Below, one piece after another: positions 5,426-58,196 of a stretch of 64,000 nt of DNA. A program made the translations under genes and the position numbers. Numbering within the stretch: the first letter of the stretch is position 1; each line of letters opens with the position of its first letter. The stretch covers positions 71,602 through 135,601 of the forward strand of contig CAVRET010000002.1 in NCBI GenBank assembly GCA_963720265.1, given 5' to 3'. The DNA comes from an uncultured bacterium (lineage in GTDB: Bacteria; Patescibacteriota; Saccharimonadia; UBA4664). A model generated the notes under the pieces. It had not been told where the DNA came from and made no database searches. It worked only from the letters and a program-made list of their open reading frames with translations.

Positions 5426-7525
<2,100 letters not shown>

Positions 7526-49788: not shown

Positions 49789-50973
49789 ATGCCCGTAACC
49801 ATGAAGATCCTACTCGTCACCGAGAGCTACTGGCCCAATGCCGACGGTGGCGCCTTATTTGAACGCCGCCTCGTGCTCGGATTAATTAACCGCGGTCATA
49901 AACTAAGTGTTTGGACCCCGGGTACCAAACTGAGCTCATATGACGAACAAGACGGTGCATACACCATCCATCGCGAAAAATCCGTCCGCTTTATTGTTAA
50001 TCCGAAATACCGAGTAAGCTACTGGCCGTTCCTGCGCGCGCGCAAGCTTATCCGCGCTGAGCGGCCGGACGTTATTCACATTCACAACTTCTGGTTCCTA
50101 GGCTTAAGCGCCATGTGGTGGGCGAAGCGCTATCGCATTCCCATTATCGCAACCAATCACTTCATGCCTGAAAACGCCCTGCTTAACTTACGGTTCCTCA
50201 GGCCGGTTGCCAAACCGGCCGGTCGCATGGTTTGGTCGTATCTGGTAAAACTTCACAATCGTTGTAATTTTGTCACCAGCCCGACCCAAACAGCCGTAAA
50301 TCTACTACTGAAACACGGCCTAACCGCACCCGTTGAGGCCATAACCAACGGCATTGACACAAATGTCTTCAAACCGGACCTCGATACAACTGCAGTCCAA
50401 GAGAAATACCGGTTGCCCAAAGATCAGCCGATTATCCTCTACCTCGGCCGCGTTGACGGCGAGAAGCGCCTGGACCTCCTCGTGTCTGCCATCACTGAAG
50501 TCAAACCGCCGGCTCACCTTGTCATTGCCGGCTTCGGAGTGGCCCAAAAGACACTTGAGCAACAAGCAGCCAAGCTCGGCATCACTGATCGTGTCACCTT
50601 CACCGGCTACATCGATGAAGACGACAAAGCCGCGATCTACAACACTGCAACCGTATTTGCTATCTCGTCACCGGCTGAGCTGCAGAGCATTGTCCTGCTC
50701 GAGGCCATGGCATCAGCACTTCCGCTCGTGGCTGTAGATGTCGCCGCCCTCAGCGAGCTCTGCCGGAATGGCGAAAACGGCTATCTCTTCACTCGCGACG
50801 ACTGGCACGCCCTGGCCGCCGCTCTCAACCACCTCCTTGCCAACCCCAGGCTCGCCCACCGCTTCGGTCAAGCCAGCCGCCGCATCGTCGAACAGTCACA
50901 CAGCACAAACTACACCTTCGATCGCTACGAAGCCGCCTACGAGCGCCTCGTCACTTCACGCTCACAAGTGTAA
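49789..50973 (+). CDS. glycosyltransferase family 4 (GT-B, group 1)
   Basis: C-terminal EX7E-like region (LLEAMASALPLVAVDVAALSELCRNGENGYLF). Confidence 0.8.
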   Translation: MPVTMKILLVTESYWPNADGGALFERRLVLGLINRGHKLSVWTPGTKLSSYDEQDGAYTIHREKSVRFIVNPKYRVSYWPFLRARKLIRAERPDVIHIHNFWFLGLSAMWWAKRYRIPIIATNHFMPENALLNLRFLRPVAKPAGRMVWSYLVKLHNRCNFVTSPTQTAVNLLLKHGLTAPVEAITNGIDTNVFKPDLDTTAVQEKYRLPKDQPIILYLGRVDGEKRLDLLVSAITEVKPPAHLVIAGFGVAQKTLEQQAAKLGITDRVTFTGYIDEDDKAAIYNTATVFAISSPAELQSIVLLEAMASALPLVAVDVAALSELCRNGENGYLFTRDDWHALAAALNHLLANPRLAHRFGQASRRIVEQSHSTNYTFDRYEAAYERLVTSRSQV

Positions 50974-51652
50974 CGTCAAACACCAGCACCGCATTGGCCG
51001 GCACCTGCGGGCTCTTGCCCTGCGAGCCATACCCCACGCTCGGCGGCACGATAATACGCCGTTCACCACCAACCTTCATCCCAAATACCCCCTCCTGAAA
51101 TCCCACGATCACGTTCGAAGAGCCAACCGTAAAGGTATAGGGGTCTCCAGAGGTGGCGGCGTCAAATTCCGTTCCATTTGTCAGCCAAGCCGTATATTCA
51201 ACCGTTACAACACTACCCTTCGCCACTGTCGTACCGGTCCCAGGCTGAGTATCGATATAAAGCGCGTCCGCGTTCGTTGCATACTTGTCGTATACACTAA
51301 ACCCGCTCGGATCCGGCAGCGAATTCGAGCTCGAATTCGAGCCTGAGTCCGAACCCCCGCTCGAATCACCGCTGCTCTCATTCTGGCCACTACTCGTCTG
51401 ATCACCCTCCACTGACCCTTGGCTCCCACCGTTCGTCACTTCCAACCCGTTGAAAGGCGTCGGGGTCGGCGAACCCGTAAGCGGAATCGCTGTCCCGTCA
51501 TTATTCGGATTCAAATTTGCTGCCAGCTTTCCCCCGCTCGCACTGGCTGTTGTATCATTCCGATGTAAAAATAACCACGCCACCACGCCAAATCCTACGA
51601 GTACCCCCGCACCAACCGTCACACCACTAAACTTCACCCACCTACGCATCAC
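50951..51652 (-). CDS. FKBP-type peptidyl-prolyl cis-trans isomerase, TM-anchored with Ser-rich linker
   Basis: The C-terminal FKBP domain contains GSVVTVEYTAWLTNGTEFD...GFQEGVFGMKVGGERRIIVPP...VFDVTLVSV. Confidence 0.75.
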   Translation of the reverse strand: MMRRWVKFSGVTVGAGVLVGFGVVAWLFLHRNDTTASASGGKLAANLNPNNDGTAIPLTGSPTPTPFNGLEVTNGGSQGSVEGDQTSSGQNESSGDSSGGSDSGSNSSSNSLPDPSGFSVYDKYATNADALYIDTQPGTGTTVAKGSVVTVEYTAWLTNGTEFDAATSGDPYTFTVGSSNVIVGFQEGVFGMKVGGERRIIVPPSVGYGSQGKSPQVPANAVLVFDVTLVSVK

Positions 51653-51705
51653 GTCCGATTGTATCAGAAAAGCCCTTATGACACTCTGAGGTTGTTTACA
51701 AATCG

Positions 51706-52668
51706 TTACAGTTCTAACGAACGCGGCGCAAGTAGGGCTTCTAGCTCTATCATCAAACGCTCGCCGAGCCGATCCGCAGACTCTTTCGTAATACCGCCGA
51801 TGTGAGGAGTAATGACCACGTTGTTTGAGTTAACCATCTCCTGAATACGCGGGTCAGCCTTGCTTATATTAAACGGCTCACCCTCAATTACATCCAGTGC
51901 AGCACCAGCCAATTTTTTCTCATATAGCGCCTCAGCCACGGCCAAGGTATCTACTACCACGCCACGGCCAACGTTTACTAGGATTGCATCGGGCTTCATA
52001 CGAGACAGCGCTGATGAACCAATCATATGCTCCGTGTCATTGCTAGCCGGAACGGCCACTACCAGAAAATCTGCCTTAGCCAAAACCTCGTTAAAGCCCC
52101 AAAACTTTTGCAGTCCCAACTGCTTTGCTCGCTCCACACTGGGATTTTTAGTATATGCCACAACATTCATCTCAAATCCATGCCCAATATTAATCAATTC
52201 ACGCCCAATATTGCCTGCGCCAATTATCCCAATGGTCTTGCCGGCCAACTCATCACCCTCAAAGTACTGAAAATCCCAACCTCCGCCTCGCGCATAGTTG
52301 TTTGCCATTGGCACCTTCCTGAGCAAACTAATTAATATCGCGAACGCCATCTCGGCCACACCGCGCGCGTTATACCCCGGAAAATTAACCACCTTGATCC
52401 CTCGCTGCGCACAGTACTCGGTGTCAATGTGGTCGGTACCCACGCTCGTCGTAATAATGGCTCGCAGCTTCGGCCATTTGCGCAGCACAGTCTTATACTG
52501 AGAGAGGTCGGTCACGATAATGTCCGCGTCCTTGCCACGTTCCGATAATTCTGCTTCGTCGGCAGCAAACTCCGAGTACTGTTCTACTTCCAACCCTGGT
52601 AGGCGACATATACGCTCAACTATCTCAGGCGTCAGTACAACTGGCGGATCTGTAAATACGAGATTCAT
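51706..52668 (-). CDS. D-isomer-specific 2-hydroxyacid dehydrogenase (NAD-dependent), canonical
   Basis: GIIGAGNIGRE NAD motif; catalytic Arg (VGRGVVVD), Glu (LDVIEGEP) and His (ITPHIGG) are all present. Confidence 0.8.
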   Translation of the reverse strand: MNLVFTDPPVVLTPEIVERICRLPGLEVEQYSEFAADEAELSERGKDADIIVTDLSQYKTVLRKWPKLRAIITTSVGTDHIDTEYCAQRGIKVVNFPGYNARGVAEMAFAILISLLRKVPMANNYARGGGWDFQYFEGDELAGKTIGIIGAGNIGRELINIGHGFEMNVVAYTKNPSVERAKQLGLQKFWGFNEVLAKADFLVVAVPASNDTEHMIGSSALSRMKPDAILVNVGRGVVVDTLAVAEALYEKKLAGAALDVIEGEPFNISKADPRIQEMVNSNNVVITPHIGGITKESADRLGERLMIELEALLAPRSLEL

Positions 52669-53921
52669 CGTGCACTTCTCCCCAATTTCAGCTGCTTGAG
52701 AATAGCTAGGACCTCTTGGTTATTGCGCGCCATCGACTGCTTCGTATAAAAGCCGAGCTCAGGGGTTATCACTACGTTGGGAAAATTCATAATCTTACGA
52801 TACTTACTGGCCGGAAAATTATTAAAAATCCCGACCGCATCGGCGAAATAATCGAGAGCGATCGCGATAATATCTCTTGAAATTATCAGCTCTCGCAACA
52901 AATCAACGTCTAAATCGAGTGAATAGCTCAAGAACAGAAAGTACTTTGCTCTCATTTTCCTGTTCATCAAATTTGGACCAAGTTCAACCATCGCATTCAA
53001 ATCCTCGGGGAAAATCACGACATCACAGGAGTGAAAGAGCTCACTTAGGGGCGTATATGCTGCTACGCCCAAATCACCGGGAGGCAAAGATGTCTGATCC
53101 GGATCGCAAACCATTACCCCACAACCAAAAGCTCTCAGCAGCGGTATGATCTCGCGGCCTTCGCGCTTTACACCTACAACTCCAACAGTTTTCCCGTGTA
53201 GCTCCTCCGACACAAAACCGCGGTAATCAAACTGGCCCAGCCTCAGTGCCTCTGCCGCCGGATATAGAGGCCGCAAGACGTGGAATAACGAGGCAAACAC
53301 AAACTCAGTTCTGGCAGCTTTCTTGTAATATTCATACGGCGTCAAGGAACGCACCTCAATGCCCAACTCACGACACGCCTCAACGTCGACCATCTCCGTA
53401 GTTATCGAGGCTGTCACAATACACTTCAGCCTAGGGCACTTCATCAGCATTTGCTTATCTATGGCGACGGAAAAAAATGTCACTACCACGTCAGCATCAG
53501 AACATCGCAAAATAAACGCCTCCGGGCTGATGCGCACTGGTGAATCAGGGTAGCTCACCACTTCGTAGTCGCTGAGTTGATCGAGTGCCTCTTTCGACAA
53601 CACGTACCAGTCGCAAAAAACCAGTTTGGGCTTCTTGCCAGCCACCGTTGACCTTGGTGAATCCAATAGGAGCTCAGTTAGAGCCCGCTGCTGCTCCGCA
53701 ATCACTTTTTGCAGCCTGGAAGTCTCTGCTACTCGGTAAATAACCCGCCGTGTCGATACCTTCACCTCCTCAAGTACCCCCTTGTGAACCAGTGATTGCA
53801 GCTGATAATGCAACGTTGAGCGGTGCATTTGCAAATCCCGTGCTAAATTAGGCAAGGTCGCATGGCCCCGTTCTTGTATAGCCCGTATCGTTTTTGTCTC
53901 TTCCGGCGAAATCAAAAGCAT
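52665..53921 (-). CDS. wHTH DNA-binding domain fused to a catalytically degenerate D-2-hydroxyacid-dehydrogenase-like domain
   Basis: N-terminal wHTH (ATLPNLARDLQMHRSTLHYQLQSLVHKGVLE). The C-terminus has a Rossmann motif (GKTVGVVGVKREG) but reads TPELG instead of TPH, and lacks the catalytic Arg and Glu. Its stop overlaps the start of the canonical paralog. Confidence 0.6.
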   Translation of the reverse strand: MLLISPEETKTIRAIQERGHATLPNLARDLQMHRSTLHYQLQSLVHKGVLEEVKVSTRRVIYRVAETSRLQKVIAEQQRALTELLLDSPRSTVAGKKPKLVFCDWYVLSKEALDQLSDYEVVSYPDSPVRISPEAFILRCSDADVVVTFFSVAIDKQMLMKCPRLKCIVTASITTEMVDVEACRELGIEVRSLTPYEYYKKAARTEFVFASLFHVLRPLYPAAEALRLGQFDYRGFVSEELHGKTVGVVGVKREGREIIPLLRAFGCGVMVCDPDQTSLPPGDLGVAAYTPLSELFHSCDVVIFPEDLNAMVELGPNLMNRKMRAKYFLFLSYSLDLDVDLLRELIISRDIIAIALDYFADAVGIFNNFPASKYRKIMNFPNVVITPELGFYTKQSMARNNQEVLAILKQLKLGRSAR

Positions 53922-53989
53922 TTTCTCATCCTAAAGCGTTTCTTTAGTTTTGTAAAATTAATTTAGTATTTAGTTTAAATTTATTCTCT

Positions 53990-54017
53990 ATTATGTATGA
54001 AAATTTTCATACATAAT
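53990..54017. promoter_or_regulatory. 28-bp perfect AT-rich palindrome (candidate operator)
   Basis: ATTATGTATGAAAATTTTCATACATAAT. It lies about 70-95 bp upstream of the wHTH-dehydrogenase start, in the promoter region between it and ssrA. Confidence 0.4.
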
Positions 54018-54086
54018 AAAATGCAACGAGCTCAATAGGCCTTAGCCGTAATCAAAAAAACCCCAGCACGTTGGCTAAGGCTCTTT

Positions 54087-54464
54087 TGGTGGAGCTGCGG
54101 GGAATTGCACCCCGGTCCGCCGAGTCACACGACAGCGCACTACAGGTTTAGTCTACCTGGGAGTCTTAGCCAAGCGTCTGTGAGCAGACGAAACGGCGCT
54201 TGGAGCAGCCTCAAATCTTAGGGTTCGAGCAGAGGCGCACTCGAAACTGCAACCCGATAAATTGACACCGGCGAACCCCTACCGGGTATCAGGTGCCGAT
54301 GGCTTTCGTTATTAGGCGAAAGCAGGAGCGAGCGAAGGCATGCTAAAAGCAGACTTCACCCGCGAAAGAAAGTTGGCAATTGAGCTAACTTGATGGAATC
54401 TGACGTTTGCCTCCGACCTGCGCGTATGTCCTGTAAAATTCCCGACGTCGAAGCTGATCAGCCC
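54087..54464 (-). ncRNA. ssrA: tmRNA (ssrA)
   Basis: The 5' end is GGGGCUGAUCAGCUUCGACGUCGGG (E. coli begins GGGGCUGAU...UUCGACGGG). The 3' end is GGACCGGGGUGCAAUUCCCCGCAGCUCCACCA (E. coli ends ...CCAGCUCCACCA). The acceptor stem has the G3-U70 Ala identity pair. An internal tag frame ends ...PSLAPAFA-TAA-TAA. Confidence 0.8.
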
Positions 54465-54647
54465 CACGTTTATGGACCAAAGTATAGCATATTGAGCTAA
54501 TTGAGGCAAGAATAAGCATAAGAAGTGTTGTGGTAAAAACGACGTTTTAACAAAAACTGCTTGCCTGTGTCCAAGCTTTTTGGTGCAACCGCCGAAGCAC
54601 TATGGCAGCCGCTTCCCTACCATTATGGGCATAAGGAGGAACGTTAA

Positions 54648-54884
54648 ATGACATACGACGAAGAACTAGACTACTTGGAAGATGATGAGATGATGACAGC
54701 TGACCTCAGCGACGACAGTGCCGAAGCTGACGCTGCTGACACCTTCGGTGAGCGACTCGACTACGACATCGACGAGACCCTAACCGAGGACGAGGCCACG
54801 CCAGACGGCGAGGAAGACGAGGCTATCAGCACGACGCCCGAGGACCTAGTCGGCGAGGAGGTCGAGGATCATCGAGCCTTCTAG
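54648..54884 (+). CDS. small highly acidic protein (78 aa, about 40% Asp/Glu)
   Basis: Strong RBS AAGGAGGaacgttaa-ATG. A strong terminator follows immediately. No recognisable domain. Confidence 0.5.
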   Translation: MTYDEELDYLEDDEMMTADLSDDSAEADAADTFGERLDYDIDETLTEDEATPDGEEDEAISTTPEDLVGEEVEDHRAF

Positions 54885-54897
54885 TAGTTACTAGCTG

Positions 54898-54936
54898 AAA
54901 AAACGCGGCCGCATGATTATCTCGGCCGCGTTTTTT
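54898..54936 (+). terminator. rho-independent terminator (bidirectional-looking)
   Basis: AAAAAACGCGGCCG catgattatct CGGCCGCGTTTTTT. Confidence 0.6.
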
Positions 54937-54952
54937 GCGCTAAAATAACGTT

Positions 54953-56242
54953 ATGAGAATTGGCGTCTTCACAGACCGGTATCTCCCCCAGACCGATGGA
55001 GTGTCCGTAGCCGTCGAAATCATGCGGACCGAGCTGGAGAAAATGGGCCACGAGGTCTATATTTTGGCGCCTCGCCCCAGCTGGCGCTATCGTGAACGCT
55101 CACCGCGCATTATCCGCTTCGCAGCGGTCAAAGGCTTATTTTTTGATGACTATCTCATGACTTTTTACTTCCCTTTCCAAGCTACCCGCCAGATCGATAA
55201 ATTGAACCTCGACATTGTTCACTTCCAAACTCCAGGGCAAATTGGGCTTTTGGGAGCCTATTACGCCATTCATGCCAGTAAACCACTCATCACCACATAT
55301 CACACCGATTTGGTCGAATACATCAAGCATTACCCGAAGGTCATTGTTGGGACGATTGCGCTAGCAGCCTTAGCGCCGGCCATCGTGGATGGGCACTTTG
55401 AGGATTATCGCAGGAATCTTGTCGCCATGATGCCCAAACGCAACATTGCTCAATGGCACGAAAAGATTGTCATCCATGGCCTTACGCTCCTGCACAATCA
55501 CTGCGATCTGGTCATCGCACCCTCGGACAAAATCAAACAACAGCTCGAATCATTTGGAACTACAACCGAGGTGAAAGTTTTAGCCTCCGGAATTGACAAA
55601 ATTACAACAACAGATGCCGACATCGAGCATTGGCGACATGAGCTTAACTATGCCGCTTCAGACAAAGTTATCATCTTTGTTGGGCGTATTGGAACCGAAA
55701 AAAATATTGGGCTGCTGATTCGCAGCTTCAACATCGTTGCCAGACGGAACTTAAACGCCAAGCTCCTCATTATTGGTGCCGGCGATGACCTCACGTTTTT
55801 CAAAACCCAAGCCTCAGAGTCACCTTATGCCGACCGGATTACATTTACCGGACAAATCGAAAATTCACGTCTCGGCGCGCTGTACGGCCTCTCAACTGTC
55901 CTTGGTTTCCCAAGTCTGAGTGAGACCCAAGGCCTTGTTGTGAACGAAGCTGTAGCCGCCGGTTTACCCGTTGTAATGATCGAACACGACATCACAACAG
56001 CTGTAATTGAGGGAGAAAATGGCTTTTTCGCACGCAATTCGGCCAGAGATTTTGCCGCCAAACTCCTCCGAATCATTTCCGATCAAGACCTACAGCACCG
56101 CTTTTCCGGGCGTAGTCTCGAGCTGGCGACCAAAGTTACGGCCGCCAAGCAAACAGCTAAACTCCTCGGCCTCTACCACGAAACCGCCGAGCTTCACCAA
56201 GCTAAGATCCGCGCCCGCTCGGGTACCGCTGTGTCGCGCTAG
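54953..56242 (+). CDS. glycosyltransferase family 4 (diacylglycerol glycosyltransferase-like)
   Basis: It begins MRIGVFTDRYLPQTDGVSVAV, as is typical of GT4. The C-terminal EX7E region is LVVNEAVAAGLPVVMIEHD. Confidence 0.8.
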   Translation: MRIGVFTDRYLPQTDGVSVAVEIMRTELEKMGHEVYILAPRPSWRYRERSPRIIRFAAVKGLFFDDYLMTFYFPFQATRQIDKLNLDIVHFQTPGQIGLLGAYYAIHASKPLITTYHTDLVEYIKHYPKVIVGTIALAALAPAIVDGHFEDYRRNLVAMMPKRNIAQWHEKIVIHGLTLLHNHCDLVIAPSDKIKQQLESFGTTTEVKVLASGIDKITTTDADIEHWRHELNYAASDKVIIFVGRIGTEKNIGLLIRSFNIVARRNLNAKLLIIGAGDDLTFFKTQASESPYADRITFTGQIENSRLGALYGLSTVLGFPSLSETQGLVVNEAVAAGLPVVMIEHDITTAVIEGENGFFARNSARDFAAKLLRIISDQDLQHRFSGRSLELATKVTAAKQTAKLLGLYHETAELHQAKIRARSGTAVSR

Positions 56243-57024
56243 TTGACAGGACCAGCGGCCTCCCAGGCCACACTAAATAGCGCCCTCAGCCCGGCCGCCA
56301 ACGCATCGCTCCGCACTGCTAAGCCTATCGGGTTGGCAGCGCCAAGCGACAGCATCAAGATATTGTCGCCGGCAATCGTGAAATCACCGGTCATTGGAAA
56401 CATATCGCGCGGCAGCCAGCGCGATTGGTGATACGTTCCGTCGCTCACACTTTTGAGCAACGGTCCCGCTTCAGCCGTATACAAAAACCGGCTCTTGAGG
56501 CCGGTTTTGCGCCGCCACTGAGTTGCCATCTCGGCTCGAAACTCCGGAACATAGTTAAGCAGCAAATCCAGGTTGCTGAATCCATATACCGTATCCACTT
56601 GCGGCCCTCGCTCTTGCTGCAAAAAGGCGTTAAGGATAGTTTTAATACCGGCTGTGCTGTCGTAAAACTTCACATCCGGAGAATCCCTGGGTAATGATCG
56701 CAACGACTGCAAATCATCCAGCACCTGCGTAAAGCTATGCTGTTGCCGTTTGAGCTCCAATTCCCGCTTCTGGAGCAAGCGTTGTAGCCTAACCGGCTCT
56801 TCGGCCACAAACAGCGTTTTCTTACCCCTCACGGCCTGCGTCACGAGCCCCAGAGCCACCAGCGACTCCAATACCACATATGTGGTCACCCGTTTAATAC
56901 CGGCTTGCACTGCAATGTTCTGGACAGATGCCGGACCGAGCTGCAAACACGCAATATAGACCGAGGCCTCTTTATTGCTCAGGCCCAACTCCTCAATTCT
57001 TGGAACCAGGTGCCGGTTATTCAT
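56239..57024 (-). CDS. TrmB-family sugar-responsive transcriptional regulator
   Basis: N-terminal TrmB HTH (LGLSNKEASVYIACLQLGPASVQNIAVQAGIKRVTTYVVLESL) and a C-terminal sensor domain. Confidence 0.75.
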   Translation of the reverse strand: MNNRHLVPRIEELGLSNKEASVYIACLQLGPASVQNIAVQAGIKRVTTYVVLESLVALGLVTQAVRGKKTLFVAEEPVRLQRLLQKRELELKRQQHSFTQVLDDLQSLRSLPRDSPDVKFYDSTAGIKTILNAFLQQERGPQVDTVYGFSNLDLLLNYVPEFRAEMATQWRRKTGLKSRFLYTAEAGPLLKSVSDGTYHQSRWLPRDMFPMTGDFTIAGDNILMLSLGAANPIGLAVRSDALAAGLRALFSVAWEAAGPVN

Positions 57025-57100
57025 ATCGAGATTATATCAGCATATTACATTTTCGGATTTCGTTCGGTATTATCAAGTTCACCTGGCTTGGAGGCTACAA

Positions 57101-57322
57101 TGCTTGGCTGCCCTAGCCATAAACCGCTTAAATCTATCAGCCCGCGGCTACAACCGCATGCTCAAAATCGCCCGCACCGTTGCCGATCTGGATAGCTCTC
57201 CAAATATTGAAGTGAATCATTTTTCTGAGGCGTTACAATACCGGCCACGTCTAAAGCAGGCCAACGCAGTGAGCATCACCACTCAAGCCACACCGGTTAT
57301 ATCAGCTAACACTAAACGATGA
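57101..57322 (+). pseudogene. comM: remnant of comM/yifB (Mg-chelatase-like AAA ATPase), C-terminal ~50 codons only
   Basis: LNLSARGYNRMLKIARTVADLDSSPNIEVNHFSEALQYRP matches the conserved ComM C-terminus (LSARGYHRILKVARTIADL...HLAEALQYR). No N-terminal AAA or Lon parts are present, and the ORF overlaps the trmB end. Confidence 0.55.
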
Positions 57323-57661
57323 ATACACGCTGTTGCCGATCCCGGTGTGAGCAAAGAGGTACCAAAGGACAAGCTCAAGTGCTACTAGACAAACCGCAAA
57401 GACGGCAATCCGCCGCACATCTTTACCAACGTAAGAAAAGTCGCGGGCGCCAATCGCAACCACGCCCCTACTACTAGCGGATGATACCTGCTTGCGTGGA
57501 CCAACAGCTTCCCCCGGCCTCGTTTCCGCCGACCTATCACGACCCCCGGCCAGCTCCAAACCGGCCGCAACCGTTGGCTCCGTATATTTAAAACGATGCT
57601 TCTTAGATTGCTTCTTCTTCGCCATTGGCGACATAGTATCACATCTGGAACAGCGCGGCAC
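57302..57661 (-). CDS. basic N-terminus, C-terminal TM helix (hypothetical)
   Basis: A 119-aa ORF. The likely start is the internal MSPMAKKKQSKK or MAKKKQ. Support is weak. Confidence 0.35.
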   Translation of the reverse strand: MPRCSRCDTMSPMAKKKQSKKHRFKYTEPTVAAGLELAGGRDRSAETRPGEAVGPRKQVSSASSRGVVAIGARDFSYVGKDVRRIAVFAVCLVALELVLWYLFAHTGIGNSVYSSFSVS

Positions 57662-57728
57662 GTCAGTTGCACTGGTGCACGCACAAACTCTATACTGTGA
57701 AGGAACAAACAGGATGTGATGGTTATTT

Positions 57729-58196
57729 ATGGTAGTACCGATCGCAGTCGCGATACTGGCGCTTGTACTCGCAGCCTACAGTGTAAACGAAAATATACGC
57801 CTCAAGCGTCGCTTTCAGGCAGCGCTCGGCGGTACTAGCCCAAAGTCACTTGAAAGTCTGCTCACCGACCACCTCGCCAGGGTTAATGAAGTGGATCAAC
57901 GGCTCGTTATTCTAGACGATAAATACACGCGGCTTACCGATATGAGTAGTCTCGCGTCGCAAAAAATCTCAATCGTTCGCTTCAACCCGTTCGGCGACAC
58001 CGGCGGCGACCAGAGCTTCAGCTTAGCCGTCCTCGACGCACACGATTCCGGTTATATCTTAAGCAGCATCCACGGTCGCACTGGCACCCGAGTTTACGTA
58101 AAGCCAATCGACTTTGGTAAAAGTAAGTACACGCTTTCAACCGAGGAGCAGCAGGCGTTGTCGCAAGCAATGAAGCGTATACCCAAGGTCGCATAA
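57729..58196 (+). CDS. DUF4446-like protein with N-terminal TM
   Basis: Contains FNPFGDTGGDQSFSLAVLD and YVKPIDFGKS, which are typical of DUF4446. Confidence 0.6.
   Translation: MVVPIAVAILALVLAAYSVNENIRLKRRFQAALGGTSPKSLESLLTDHLARVNEVDQRLVILDDKYTRLTDMSSLASQKISIVRFNPFGDTGGDQSFSLAVLDAHDSGYILSSIHGRTGTRVYVKPIDFGKSKYTLSTEEQQALSQAMKRIPKVA

What the first reader, a model, noticed from the sequence alone, without database searches (positions are those of the whole stretch)
51706..54017. One-component regulator built from a wHTH fused to a degenerate D-2-hydroxyacid dehydrogenase fold, next to its catalytic paralog and a 28-bp palindrome
Gene 52665-53921 joins an N-terminal winged helix to a D2-HDH-like NAD(H)-binding domain. 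The Rossmann motif is retained, but TPHIGG has become TPELG and the catalytic Arg and Glu are missing. The gene immediately downstream is a canonical, catalytically complete D2-HDH, and the two overlap by 4 nt. A perfect 28-bp palindrome (ATTATGTATGAAAATTTTCATACATAAT) lies in the promoter region upstream. This resembles the eukaryotic CtBP logic, where a dehydrogenase fold acts as a redox or NAD(H)-sensing transcription factor. A sensor paralog controlling its enzymatic twin would be an undescribed bacterial regulatory design.
Basis: partly seen in the sequence, partly recalled or inferred. Interest (0 to 1): 0.6.

Follow-up and report, generated by a model that had tools for sequence, protein, structure and literature searches.

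The report
Dead-dehydrogenase DNA regulator beside its enzyme
A tiny-genome bacterium (Patescibacteria) encodes a DNA-binding protein whose second half is a catalytically dead copy of the dehydrogenase encoded right after it. The pairing is rare, conserved and uncharacterised, has its own DNA docking site, and does not look like the NADH sensor first proposed.

Summary
Gene A (52665-53921, minus strand, 418 aa) is an N-terminal MarR/TrmB-type winged helix, a long helix, and a complete two-domain D-2-hydroxyacid dehydrogenase (2HADH) fold (AlphaFold pLDDT 90.5). Gene B (51706-52668) is a canonical 2HADH and overlaps A by ATGA. The palindrome is 30 bp, not 28 (53989-54018), and is the longest in the window. 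The claim that the Rossmann motif is retained is wrong. GxGxxG is G-V-K-R-E-G in the window protein. Across 35 family members the second Gly survives in 4, the catalytic His in 0 (Glu/Asp in 31), Arg in 2 and Glu in 2. About 30 clusters at 50% identity exist among 1.84 billion representatives; every member with a named source is Patescibacteria. A is immediately followed by a B-type enzyme in 12 of 13 informative loci, despite unrelated flanks. B orthologs are the closest active relatives of A's dead domain. Dyad sites sit upstream of leaderless promoters: TGTAYGAA-N4-TTCRTACA about 81 nt upstream of the ATG in the window clade, and RTTCA-N7-TGAAY elsewhere (6 exact hits in 169 kb, all next to gene A). 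Best reading: a one-component autoregulator of the A-B operon with an enzyme-derived, non-NAD sensor or dimerisation domain. This is a new variant of a known kind.

The parts
52665..53921 (-). Gene A: 418-aa wHTH + pseudo-2HADH protein (includes stop codon 52665-52667)
   Evidence: ORF list. Pfam domain hits. 100% identical protein P0001 on a 1.1-Mb NCBI contig. AlphaFold model with pLDDT 90.5.
53724..53921 (-). aa 1-66: winged helix-turn-helix. Predicted recognition helix around HRSTLHYQLQSLV.
   Evidence: HTH_IclR scores 23.8-27 bits against a cutoff of 22. Of 27 family N-termini, 20 match TrmB, 19 match HTH_24 and 18 match MarR. The PDB profile search finds AdcR, Lrp/AsnC and ArsR/SmtB wHTH proteins. 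The model shows H6-18, H23-30, H34-46, E50-54 and E60-64.
53631..53723 (-). aa 67-97: long helix (67-87) followed by a low-confidence linker (88-97)
   Evidence: DSSP on the AlphaFold model. pLDDT is below 50 at residues 87-89.
52668..53630 (-). aa 98-418: complete two-domain 2HADH fold, catalytically dead
   Evidence: Foldseek against PDB: 1wwk, 2g76, 6ih2 and others, E as low as 1e-20, target-normalised TM 0.73-0.78. phmmer against PDB: 1wwk, E 1.3e-17. Residue table.
53157..53174 (-). Codons for G250-V-K-R-E-G255, the degenerate remnant of the GxGxxG dinucleotide-binding loop
   Evidence: Read directly from the sequence. HMM column mapping. KREG is conserved in the window clade only.
52758..52760 (-). 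Codon for Glu388, which replaces the catalytic His (TPH to TPE)
   Evidence: This position is Glu in 21, Asp in 10 and His in 0 of 35 family members.
51706..52668 (-). Gene B: 320-aa canonical D-2-hydroxyacid dehydrogenase with GAGNIG, Arg235, Glu264 and His289. The beta-B end is Thr-Lys rather than Asp.
   Evidence: Pfam 176 bits. NCBIfam PGDH and glyoxylate reductase hits are below their equivalog cutoffs. Best PDB match is 1wwk, E 3e-52. Ortholog alignment.
52665..52668 (-). ATGA overlap: stop codon of A and start codon of B
   Evidence: Sequence. The same 4-nt overlap occurs in 7 of 12 loci; the rest range from an 8-nt overlap to an 8-nt gap.
53989..54018 (.). Perfect 30-bp palindrome. The core TGTATGAA-AATT-TTCATACA is the candidate operator. 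Its centre is about 82 nt upstream of A's ATG.
   Evidence: longest in the window. It is the only match to TGTAYGAA-N4-TTCRTACA in the window at up to 3 mismatches. Same motif at the same position in L001 (0 mismatches), L004 (2) and L003 (3).
53928..53956 (-). Promoter-like site TTTACA-17 nt-TAGGAT. The ATG starts 6 nt after the -10 hexamer, implying a leaderless or near-leaderless mRNA.
   Evidence: Consensus scan. The same architecture (TTGACA/TTGACT, 17-18 nt, TAGNNT/TATACT/TACGAT, then 6-8 nt to the ATG) is seen in L001, L003, L004, L005 and L017.

Best explanation
Gene A encodes a one-component transcription factor. Its MarR/TrmB-type winged helix binds, as a dimer, the dyad-symmetric site upstream of its own near-leaderless promoter. 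It thereby controls the bicistronic, translationally coupled A-B operon, meaning itself plus a probably NADP(H)-preferring D-2-hydroxyacid dehydrogenase.

The C-terminal part is an ancient, strongly constrained pseudoenzyme. It derives from a 2HADH whose closest active relatives are the B-type enzymes next door. It has lost the catalytic His, Arg and Glu, the substrate-positioning Gly, and the glycine-rich NAD fingerprint. It therefore most likely serves as the dimerisation scaffold, and as a sensor that uses the hinge between its two lobes for a ligand other than canonically bound NAD(H).

Shown here: the architecture, the fold, the loss of catalytic and cofactor motifs, the family, the synteny, and the conserved co-located dyad sites.

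Inferred: DNA binding by A, autoregulation, and the direction of regulation. My guess is ligand-dependent activation in the window clade, because the site is centred near -82 and the hexamers are weak. The identity of the ligand is also inferred; the old active site has changed from cationic (Arg/His) to acidic (Glu/Asp388 plus Asp/Glu361).
For: Architecture and fold:
- Pfam wHTH plus both 2HADH domains.
- N-terminal profile matches wHTH repressors and activators.
- AlphaFold model with pLDDT 90.5.
- Foldseek target-normalised TM 0.73-0.78 to solved 2HADHs.

Pseudoenzyme status, 225 ordinary enzymes against 35 family members:
- G-G-G of the NAD fingerprint: 100/100/99% against 24, 4 and 10 of 35.
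- Catalytic Arg: 98% against 2 of 35.
- Catalytic Glu: 95% against 2 of 35.
- Catalytic His: 98% against 0 of 35.
- Substrate-positioning Gly: 98% against 0 of 35.

Not a decaying gene:
- About 30 clusters at 50% identity, with a clear score gap (165 to 128 bits) to ordinary enzymes.
- dN of the dead domain (0.161) is lower than that of enzyme B (0.226) between the window and L004.
- dN/dS is 0.17 for L004 against L001.

Functional link to B:
- A is immediately followed by a B-type gene in 12 of 13 informative loci with otherwise unrelated flanks.
- B orthologs keep all catalytic motifs in 9 of the 10 aligned; L011 is the exception.
- B orthologs are the best single-domain hits to A's C-terminal profile.

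Operator:
- The 30-bp perfect palindrome is unique in the window.
- The motif and its 33-35 nt spacing to the -35 hexamer are conserved in L001, L003 and L004, while the DNA between them is not.
- In clades with a different recognition helix (N-K/R-S-S/T instead of H-R-S-T), the exact motif RTTCA-N7-TGAAY occurs 6 times in 168,651 bp.
- All 6 are at gene A. Four lie 13-81 nt upstream of the ATG, one overlaps a start codon, and one lies in the divergent intergenic region of L007, 90 nt from the 2HADH start.
- L018 has a 40-bp near-perfect palindrome with an N8 variant about 85 nt upstream of the inferred start of an EamA-A-B operon.
Against: - There is no experimental evidence that A binds DNA, or binds this site.
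- The operator is degenerate in L003 (3 mismatches) and L004 (2), although the recognition helix there is the same as in L001.
- No clear dyad was found upstream of A in L009 or L013, and L012 has a different GC-rich palindrome.
- The RTTCA-N7-TGAAY motif was defined after looking at three of the loci. The independent confirmations are therefore only L002 and L007. The L011 hit may be a coding coincidence.
- A site centred near -82 is not a typical repressor position, whereas in L002 it overlaps the transcription start. The sign of regulation is therefore unresolved.
- No ligand can be named.
- Only 64 kb of the genome could be scanned for further sites.
- Another regulator could bind the palindrome.
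Confidence: 0.6

Rival explanations
1. A is a redox or NAD(H)-sensing regulator, following CtBP or Rex logic. Its retained Rossmann domain binds NAD(H) and couples the NADH/NAD+ ratio to DNA binding and to expression of the dehydrogenase.
For: - The 2HADH fold is intact.
- The window protein keeps Asp273 at the end of beta-B, and the invariant Asp357.
- The palindrome resembles the Rex operator TTGTGAA-N4-TTCACAA reported in PMC2883068.
- Controlling a dehydrogenase by redox state would make physiological sense.
Against: - The second Gly of GxGxxG, which must be Gly for pyrophosphate contact (established Rossmann-fold knowledge), is Lys252. The motif reads GVKREG.
- Across the family this loop is not conserved at all, with examples such as GTDYIT, FTDSGI and MTGGTN.
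- The beta-B acidic residue is Asp in only 5 of 35 members.
- There is no Pfam hit to the Rex DNA-binding or CoA-binding domains.
- The half-sites are 2 nt longer than Rex half-sites.
Confidence: 0.1
2. A is a pseudoenzyme partner of B. It heterodimerises with the active enzyme through the conserved 2HADH dimer interface. It then either acts as a regulatory subunit of B (prozyme-like), or uses B's substrate or cofactor state as the signal that controls A's DNA binding.
For: - Adjacency is near-obligate and translationally coupled, with an ATGA overlap in 7 of 12 loci. This is tighter than most regulator-target pairs.
- B orthologs are the closest active relatives of A's dead domain.
- 2HADHs act as homodimers (PMC6303947).
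- The dead domain is more constrained than B itself.
Against: - There is no direct evidence.
- No natural A-B fusion was found. The long hits P0156, P0157 and P0167 are unrelated tandem D-LDH-like proteins.
- In L007 the nearby 2HADH is divergent and not a B ortholog (27% identity).
- In L011 the partner is itself degenerate.
- A and B share only 28% identity.
Confidence: 0.15
3. The palindrome has nothing to do with gene A. It is a tmRNA terminator or processing element, the site of another regulator, or a chance AT-rich hairpin. A may regulate genes elsewhere.
For: - The palindrome lies between the tmRNA 3' end and gene A.
- It would fold as a 15-bp hairpin if transcribed.
- It is centred about 82 nt upstream of the ATG, outside the core promoter.
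- A TrmB-like regulator gene lies 2.3 kb away.
Against: - tmRNA has its own stem plus U7 terminator at about 54054-54080, upstream of the palindrome.
- The same motif sits at the same distance from gene A in L001, L003 and L004, where the upstream genes differ and no tmRNA is present.
- The motif type changes together with A's recognition helix.
- The palindrome has no following U-run.
- Its length far exceeds chance.
Confidence: 0.1
4. A is still an enzyme with non-canonical chemistry, a moonlighting 'trigger enzyme' that both catalyses a reaction and binds DNA.
For: - The complete two-domain fold is retained.
- The acidic replacement of His (Glu/Asp in 31 of 35) is itself conserved. This suggests a functional pocket.
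Against: - The cofactor fingerprint, Arg, Glu, His and the substrate-positioning Gly are all lost.
- The loop sequences differ widely between clades. That does not fit a conserved catalytic mechanism.
Confidence: 0.03

Closest known systems
Rex (redox-sensing repressor; wHTH + Rossmann domain)
   Same: It has an N-terminal winged helix and a C-terminal Rossmann-type domain that dimerises. It binds an AT-rich dyad operator of similar look: TTGTGAA-N4-TTCACAA in S. aureus (PMC2883068), against TTGTAYGAA-N4-TTCRTACAA here. It regulates fermentative dehydrogenases.
   Different: - Rex has a single CoA-binding-type Rossmann domain with an intact NADH site. Here there is a two-domain 2HADH fold with a degenerate GxGxxG.
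- There is no Pfam match to Rex domains.
- The half-sites here are 2 nt longer.
- NAD(H) sensing is unlikely.
CtBP (eukaryotic transcriptional corepressor of the 2HADH family)
   Same: A 2HADH fold has been recruited into transcription control.
   Different: CtBP keeps the catalytic triad, NAD(H) binding and weak dehydrogenase activity. It has no DNA-binding domain and is recruited through PXDLS motifs (PMC6303947). Protein A has its own wHTH and has lost the triad and the NAD fingerprint.
Enzyme-derived one-component regulators: MocR/GabR (wHTH + aminotransferase fold), ROK repressors NagC/Mlc (wHTH + sugar-kinase fold), SorC/CggR, NrtR (Nudix + wHTH), TrmB (own knowledge)
   Same: The design principle is the same. 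A wHTH is fused to a domain descended from a metabolic enzyme. That domain has lost catalysis and serves as effector-binding and oligomerisation module, and the gene often sits next to the pathway it controls. The N-terminal domain type (MarR/TrmB-like wHTH plus a long helix) is also shared.
   Different: None of these uses a 2HADH fold. No HTH-2HADH fusion is mentioned in the 2HADH classification paper (0 occurrences of 'helix-turn-helix'). The near-obligate translational coupling to the active paralog is tighter than usual.
Catalytically degenerate 2HADHs: plant ANGUSTIFOLIA, and the archaeal X4 subfamily (PAE1175, PDB 1qp8)
   Same: These are 2HADH-fold proteins lacking catalytic residues. 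In about half of X4, His is replaced by Trp and the Glu is lost (PMC6303947).
   Different: They have no DNA-binding domain. PAE1175 still binds cofactor in the crystal. They are unrelated lineages.
Pseudoenzyme-enzyme paralog pairs: trypanosomatid AdoMetDC/prozyme, HisZ-HisG (own knowledge)
   Same: A dead paralog is encoded with, or acts on, its active relative.
   Different: In those cases the dead paralog regulates the enzyme allosterically, and no DNA binding is involved. Heteromer formation was not tested here.

Membership tests
D-isomer-specific 2-hydroxyacid dehydrogenase superfamily (Pfam PF00389 + PF02826) | Sequence match above Pfam gathering scores for both domains | tested here: met
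   51.3 bits (cutoff 24.6) and 52.6 bits (cutoff 25.1).
D-isomer-specific 2-hydroxyacid dehydrogenase superfamily (Pfam PF00389 + PF02826) | Two-domain 2HADH fold | tested here: met
   AlphaFold model with pLDDT 90.5. Foldseek target-normalised TM 0.73-0.78, E as low as 1e-20, to PHGDH, GRHPR and PTDH.
D-isomer-specific 2-hydroxyacid dehydrogenase superfamily (as an active enzyme) | Catalytic triad Arg-Glu-His, plus the substrate-positioning Gly | tested here: not met
   The window protein has Tyr333, Ala362 (with Asp361 adjacent), Glu388 and Thr174. In the family: Arg 2/35, Glu 2/35, His 0/35, Gly 0/35. Ordinary enzymes keep these in 95-98% of 225 sequences.
D-isomer-specific 2-hydroxyacid dehydrogenase superfamily (as an active enzyme) | GxGxxG dinucleotide-binding fingerprint | tested here: not met
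   The window protein reads G250-V-K252-R-E-G255. In the family the second Gly is present in 4/35 and the third in 10/35, against 225/225 and 223/225 in enzymes.
CtBP | NAD(H) binding with an intact Rossmann motif and a retained catalytic triad | tested here: not met
   CtBP chains appear only as weak PDB sequence hits (E about 5e-9), behind many ordinary enzymes.
CtBP | PXDLS-motif binding cleft; acts as a corepressor without a DNA-binding domain | not tested
   Protein A carries its own wHTH, so the architecture differs. The cleft was not examined.
Rex | Rex-type N-terminal DNA-binding domain (PF06971) and CoA-binding Rossmann domain (PF02629) | tested here: not met
   Neither family appears among the Pfam hits at E up to 1.
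Rex | Operator TTGTGAA-N4-TTCACAA | tested here: not met
   The site here is TATGTATGAA-AATT-TTCATACATA, and in L001 TTGTACGAA-TTTA-TTCGTACAA. It has the same outer TTGT/ACAA and N4 core, but each half-site is 2 nt longer.
MarR/TrmB/ArsR-type winged-helix DNA-binding domains (Pfam HTH clan) | Sequence match to wHTH models and a helix-helix-helix-wing topology | tested here: met
   HTH_IclR scores 27 bits against a cutoff of 22 for aa 1-97. TrmB matches 20/27 members, HTH_24 19/27 and MarR 18/27 at E up to 0.01. PDB profile hits include AdcR at 9.6e-9. The model topology is H-H-H-E-E.
TrmB family proper | C-terminal TrmB sugar-binding domain | tested here: not met
   The C-terminal part is a 2HADH fold.
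One-component transcription factor with a cognate operator | Sequence-specific DNA binding to the dyad site, and ligand-dependent regulation | not testable with these tools
   Only indirect evidence: conserved, co-located dyad motifs that change with the recognition helix.

The most novel reading that the evidence does not exclude
The dead-dehydrogenase regulator A pairs physically with the live dehydrogenase B through the ancestral 2HADH dimer interface. The catalytic or cofactor state of a working enzyme would then be read out directly by a DNA-binding pseudoenzyme partner. This would be a 'split trigger enzyme', in which the sensor is the enzyme itself and the transducer is its dead paralog. 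It would explain the near-obligate translational coupling and why A's own ligand sites are destroyed yet the domain is under stronger constraint than B.
Probability: 0.15. Interest if true: 0.8.

Novelty: new variant of a known kind. Interest (0 to 1): 0.55.

Why it matters
Patescibacteria (the candidate phyla radiation) have tiny genomes and few, essentially unstudied, transcription factors. This locus offers a complete and testable regulatory module: a regulator, a candidate operator with clade-specific variants, a near-leaderless promoter, and a target enzyme.

It also adds the 2HADH fold to the list of enzyme folds that bacteria have converted into regulator domains. It is a bacterial counterpart in spirit to CtBP, but evidently without NAD(H) sensing. 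If the dead domain senses a metabolite, it points to the unknown physiological role of the conserved B-type dehydrogenase. If instead it pairs with B, that would be a new signalling design.

Tried and rejected
- **A-B heterodimer prediction.** I built a paired alignment of 7 concatenated A-linker-B sequences.
- **Natural A-B fusions.** The long hits P0156, P0157 and P0167 turned out to be tandem D-LDH-like proteins, one also carrying a histidine-phosphatase domain, with no wHTH and no link to A.
- **Profile re-search of the 5.8-billion database.** The search with the 31-member alignment was swamped by ordinary 2HADHs and added only P0148.
- **Metagenome scan.** The 6-member alignment returned only two contigs whose upstream DNA is identical to L005.
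- **AFDB search.** The afdb50 fold library was not available.
- **Palindrome as tmRNA terminator.** Rejected. tmRNA has its own terminator, and the motif recurs without tmRNA in other loci.
- **RTTCA-N8-TGAAY as a general motif.** Not specific: 8 hits, including hits in coding DNA. Only the L018 copy, inside a 40-bp palindrome, is notable.
- **Catalytic Glu merely shifted.** MAFFT aligns Asp361 with the Glu, while HMM alignment puts Ala362 there. This is left as ambiguous.
- **dN/dS.** dS is saturated between the window and its nearest relatives, so only dN comparisons and one L004/L001 ratio could be used.
Full report
**What is at the coordinates.** Two ORFs lie on the minus strand. Gene A is 52665-53921 (418 aa) and gene B is 51706-52668 (320 aa). 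They share the four bases ATGA, which form A's stop and B's start. Pfam places weak but consistent wHTH hits at aa 4-67 of A (HTH_IclR, HTH_20, MarR, TrmB, Penicillinase_R). Both 2HADH domains follow, above their gathering scores (51 and 53 bits). B is a strong canonical member at 176 bits. NCBIfam gives only sub-threshold PGDH, glyoxylate reductase and D-LDH hits for both. A and B are 28% identical over 281 residues.

The palindrome is real and perfect, but it is 30 bp (53989-54018), not 28. It is the longest perfect palindrome in the window, with arm 15. The maximum arm in 100 Markov-1 random sequences was 11.

The finding did not mention a tmRNA gene on the same strand at 54087-54465 (Rfam, 89.9 bits). 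It has its own stem plus U7 terminator at about 54054-54080. The palindrome therefore lies between that terminator and A's promoter.

**Fold.** An AlphaFold2 model of A was built on 69 sequences and has mean pLDDT 90.5. It shows:
- a three-helix, two-strand winged helix (aa 1-66);
- a long helix (67-87);
- a short low-confidence linker;
- a complete two-lobed 2HADH fold (98-418).

Foldseek against the PDB returns PHGDH, glyoxylate/hydroxypyruvate reductases, phosphite dehydrogenase and D-LDH, with E as low as 1e-20 and target-normalised TM 0.73-0.78. No solved chain covers the wHTH plus 2HADH combination. The refutation condition 'the C-terminal domain does not adopt the D2-HDH fold' is therefore not met.

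| Position | Ordinary enzymes (n=225) | Family A (n=35) | Window protein |
|---|---|---|---|
| Gly 1 of GxGxxG | 100% | 24 | G250 |
| Gly 2 of GxGxxG | 100% | 4 (Lys 11, Asp 8) | K252 |
| Gly 3 of GxGxxG | 99% | 10 | G255 |
| Catalytic Arg | 98% | 2 | Y333 |
| Catalytic Glu | 95% | 2 | A362 (D361 adjacent) |
| Catalytic His | 98% | 0 (Glu 21, Asp 10) | E388 |
| Substrate-positioning Gly | 98% | 0 | T174 |

The second Gly must be Gly for pyrophosphate contact, and it is Lys here. The loop is not conserved between clades either, with examples such as GTDYIT, FTDSGI and MTGGTN.

The former active site has changed from cationic (Arg, His) to acidic (Glu/Asp at the His position, and Asp/Glu at +4 from the invariant Asp). 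That argues against binding a 2-oxo-acid carboxylate in the ancestral mode.

**A real, constrained family.** A word-indexed search of 5.8 billion proteins found only six full-length relatives (100, 75, 73, 65, 51 and 37% identity). Everything else was an ordinary ~330-aa enzyme at about 25% identity.

An exhaustive profile search of 1.84 billion cluster representatives found about 30 full-length (397-462 aa) clusters with the same architecture. There is a clean score gap (165 to 128 bits) to ordinary enzymes (alignment).

Taxonomic evidence:
- Named sources are Patescibacteria-group MAGs and Candidatus Roizmanbacteria.
- One member (P0125, locus L018) has 11 in-frame UGA codons at positions where relatives have Gly. 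That indicates a code-25 lineage.

IMG's automatic annotation already labels some members 'phosphoglycerate dehydrogenase-like enzyme/predicted transcriptional regulator'. I found no paper describing the fusion. The 2HADH classification paper has no occurrence of 'helix-turn-helix'.

The dead domain is not decaying:
- Between the window and L004, its dN (0.161) is lower than that of enzyme B (0.226) and that of the wHTH (0.278).
- dN/dS for L004 against L001 is 0.17.
- dS is otherwise saturated.

**Link to gene B.** In 12 independent loci, gene A is immediately followed on the same strand by a ~315-325-aa 2HADH. These loci are the window, L001, L002, L003, L004, L008, L009, L011, L012, L013, L017 and L018.
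- A's identity to the window protein in these loci goes down to about 26-28%.
- Junctions range from an 8-nt overlap to an 8-nt gap. ATGA occurs in 7 of the 12.
- The flanking genes are unrelated from locus to locus.

The one exception with information is L007 (Roizmanbacteria). There a different 2HADH (27% identical to B) lies divergently upstream. The L005-type contigs end before the downstream gene.

The downstream enzymes are mutual orthologs (39-71% identical to B) with GxGxxG, Arg, Glu and His intact. Two are exceptions: L011, whose partner is itself degenerate, and L003, where the gene is split by a frameshift. They share Thr-Lys/Arg instead of Asp at the end of beta-B. By the known specificity rule (PMC6303947) this suggests NADP(H) use.

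A profile of A's C-terminal domain ranks B orthologs as its best single-domain hits: B_L004 at 179.6 bits, P0150 at 177, and B_window at 172. The dead domain is therefore most closely related to the enzyme type it sits next to. That supports an old duplication-plus-fusion origin.

**Promoter and operator.** A TTTACA-17-TAGGAT promoter-like site lies at 53956-53928, and the ATG begins 6 nt after the -10 hexamer. The same layout recurs in L001, L003, L004, L005 and L017: TTGACA/TTGACT, 17-18 nt, TAGNNT/TATACT/TACGAT, then 6-8 nt to the ATG. This implies leaderless or near-leaderless mRNAs.

In the window clade (recognition helix H-R-S-T-L-[HY]-Y-Q-L-Q-S-L-V), a dyad TGTAYGAA-N4-TTCRTACA sits 33-35 nt upstream of the -35 hexamer.
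- Its centre is about 81-82 nt from the ATG.
- It is perfect in the window and in L001, with 2 mismatches in L004 and 3 in L003.
- It is the only hit at that stringency in each locus. The expected number of hits at up to 3 mismatches per shuffled locus is 0.015-0.05.
- The DNA between the dyad and the promoter is not conserved, and the upstream genes differ.

In clades with an N/V-[KR]-S-[ST] helix, a different dyad appears, RTTCA-N7-TGAAY. Its exact form occurs only six times in 168,651 bp of window plus loci, and all six are at gene A:

| Locus | Position of the RTTCA-N7-TGAAY site |
|---|---|
| L002 | centre 13 nt upstream of the ATG |
| L005 | 79 nt upstream |
| L008 | 68 nt upstream |
| L017 | 81 nt upstream |
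| L011 | overlaps the start codon; possibly a coding coincidence |
| L007 | in the divergent intergenic region, 90 nt from the 2HADH start |

Spacers of 5, 6, 8 or 9 show no such association. The motif was defined from three of these loci, so L002 and L007 are the independent confirmations.

L018 has a 40-bp near-perfect palindrome containing an N8 variant. It lies about 85 nt upstream of the inferred start of an EamA-A-B operon. More distant members (L009, L012, L013) have other palindromes or none that is clear.

**How it most likely works.** The most economical reading is a one-component regulator with these features:
- A dimer is held together by the 2HADH-derived domain. Dimerisation is the ancestral state of the fold.
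- The dimer presents two MarR/TrmB-type winged helices to a ~20-bp dyad upstream of its own promoter.
- It thereby controls the A-B operon.

The direction of regulation is not determined. A site centred near -82, together with weak hexamers, suggests activation in the window clade. The L002 site overlaps the transcription start, which suggests repression there.

The dead domain probably still uses the inter-lobe hinge to respond to a ligand. That ligand is unlikely to be NAD(H) bound in the canonical way, or a 2-oxo acid bound in the ancestral way. I put 0.6 on this overall model.

The rivals and their confidences are:
- NAD(H) sensing: 0.10.
- A-B heteromer: 0.15.
- Palindrome unrelated to A: 0.10.
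- Residual catalysis: 0.03.

**Comparison with known systems.** The protein works like the enzyme-derived one-component regulators (MocR/GabR, ROK repressors, SorC/CggR, NrtR, TrmB). In outline it also resembles Rex: wHTH plus Rossmann domain, an AT-rich dyad operator, and control of a dehydrogenase. It is not a member of Rex, because neither Rex Pfam domain matches and the half-sites are longer. It is not a CtBP analogue in mechanism, because the triad and the NAD motif are lost and it carries its own DNA-binding domain. It belongs to the 2HADH superfamily by sequence and fold, but fails every feature that defines an active enzyme.

**Verdict.** This is a genuine, conserved, uncharacterised wHTH plus pseudo-2HADH regulator family in Patescibacteria, coupled to an active paralog and to a clade-specific dyad operator. 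It is a new variant of a known kind, not the proposed NAD(H) sensor. Interest is moderate to good (0.55).

Noticed in passing
window 54087-54465 (-): Rfam finds a tmRNA gene (RF00023, 89.9 bits, full-length model match). ARAGORN misses it, both on 50000-58000 and on the whole window. A stem plus U7 terminator follows at about 54054-54080.
   Followed up: partly
L018 3001-4224 (and L019): The family member P0125 has 11 in-frame TGA codons at positions where relatives have Gly (GKTIGIVGIK, TPEIGFY). This indicates genetic code 25 (UGA = Gly, Gracilibacteria/Absconditabacteria). The database protein shows Trp at these sites because the wrong code was used.
   Followed up: yes
L018 1968-2007: A 40-bp near-perfect palindrome, AAAATAGTTTTATTCAATAATTTTTGAATAAAACTATTTT, lies upstream of an EamA-A-B gene string. 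An EamA transporter gene also lies upstream of gene A in L009, hinting at a transported metabolite linked to the module.
   Followed up: partly
L011 1818-2696: In this locus the downstream partner 'B' is itself degenerate: GTKPAC instead of GxGxxG, Arg changed to Ser, and His lost. Both paralogs therefore look catalytically dead.
   Followed up: no
L003 7170-8119: The B ortholog is split into two ORFs of 111 and 210 aa. This could be a frameshift or an assembly error. The called gene A there is also N-terminally truncated; the real start is probably 84 nt upstream, at 5917.
   Followed up: partly
L007 3540-3960: The divergent intergenic region between the 2HADH and gene A contains a GC-rich insert with hairpins (for example ATTCCCGAGCAGGTCGGGAAT) that looks like a MITE-type repeat. 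It may have displaced the operator from gene A.
   Followed up: no
window 56239-57024 (-); L002 1844-2626: A TrmB-family regulator gene (about 260 aa) lies 2-3.5 kb from gene A in two otherwise different loci. It is absent near gene A in the other loci.
   Followed up: no
window 53921-53956; L001, L003, L004, L005, L017 upstream regions: The promoter-like -10 hexamers end only 6-8 nt before the ATG in six loci, with little or no room for a Shine-Dalgarno sequence. This suggests these Patescibacteria genes are expressed from leaderless mRNAs.
   Followed up: partly
window 51320-51339: This is the second-longest perfect palindrome in the window (arm 10). It lies inside the low-complexity Ser/Gly/Asn-rich part of the ORF 50951-51652, whose C-terminus reads like an FKBP-type isomerase.
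   Followed up: no
window 54648-54884 (+): A 78-aa ORF encodes an extremely acidic (Asp/Glu-rich) product, directly upstream of a GT4-type glycosyltransferase-like ORF.
   Followed up: no
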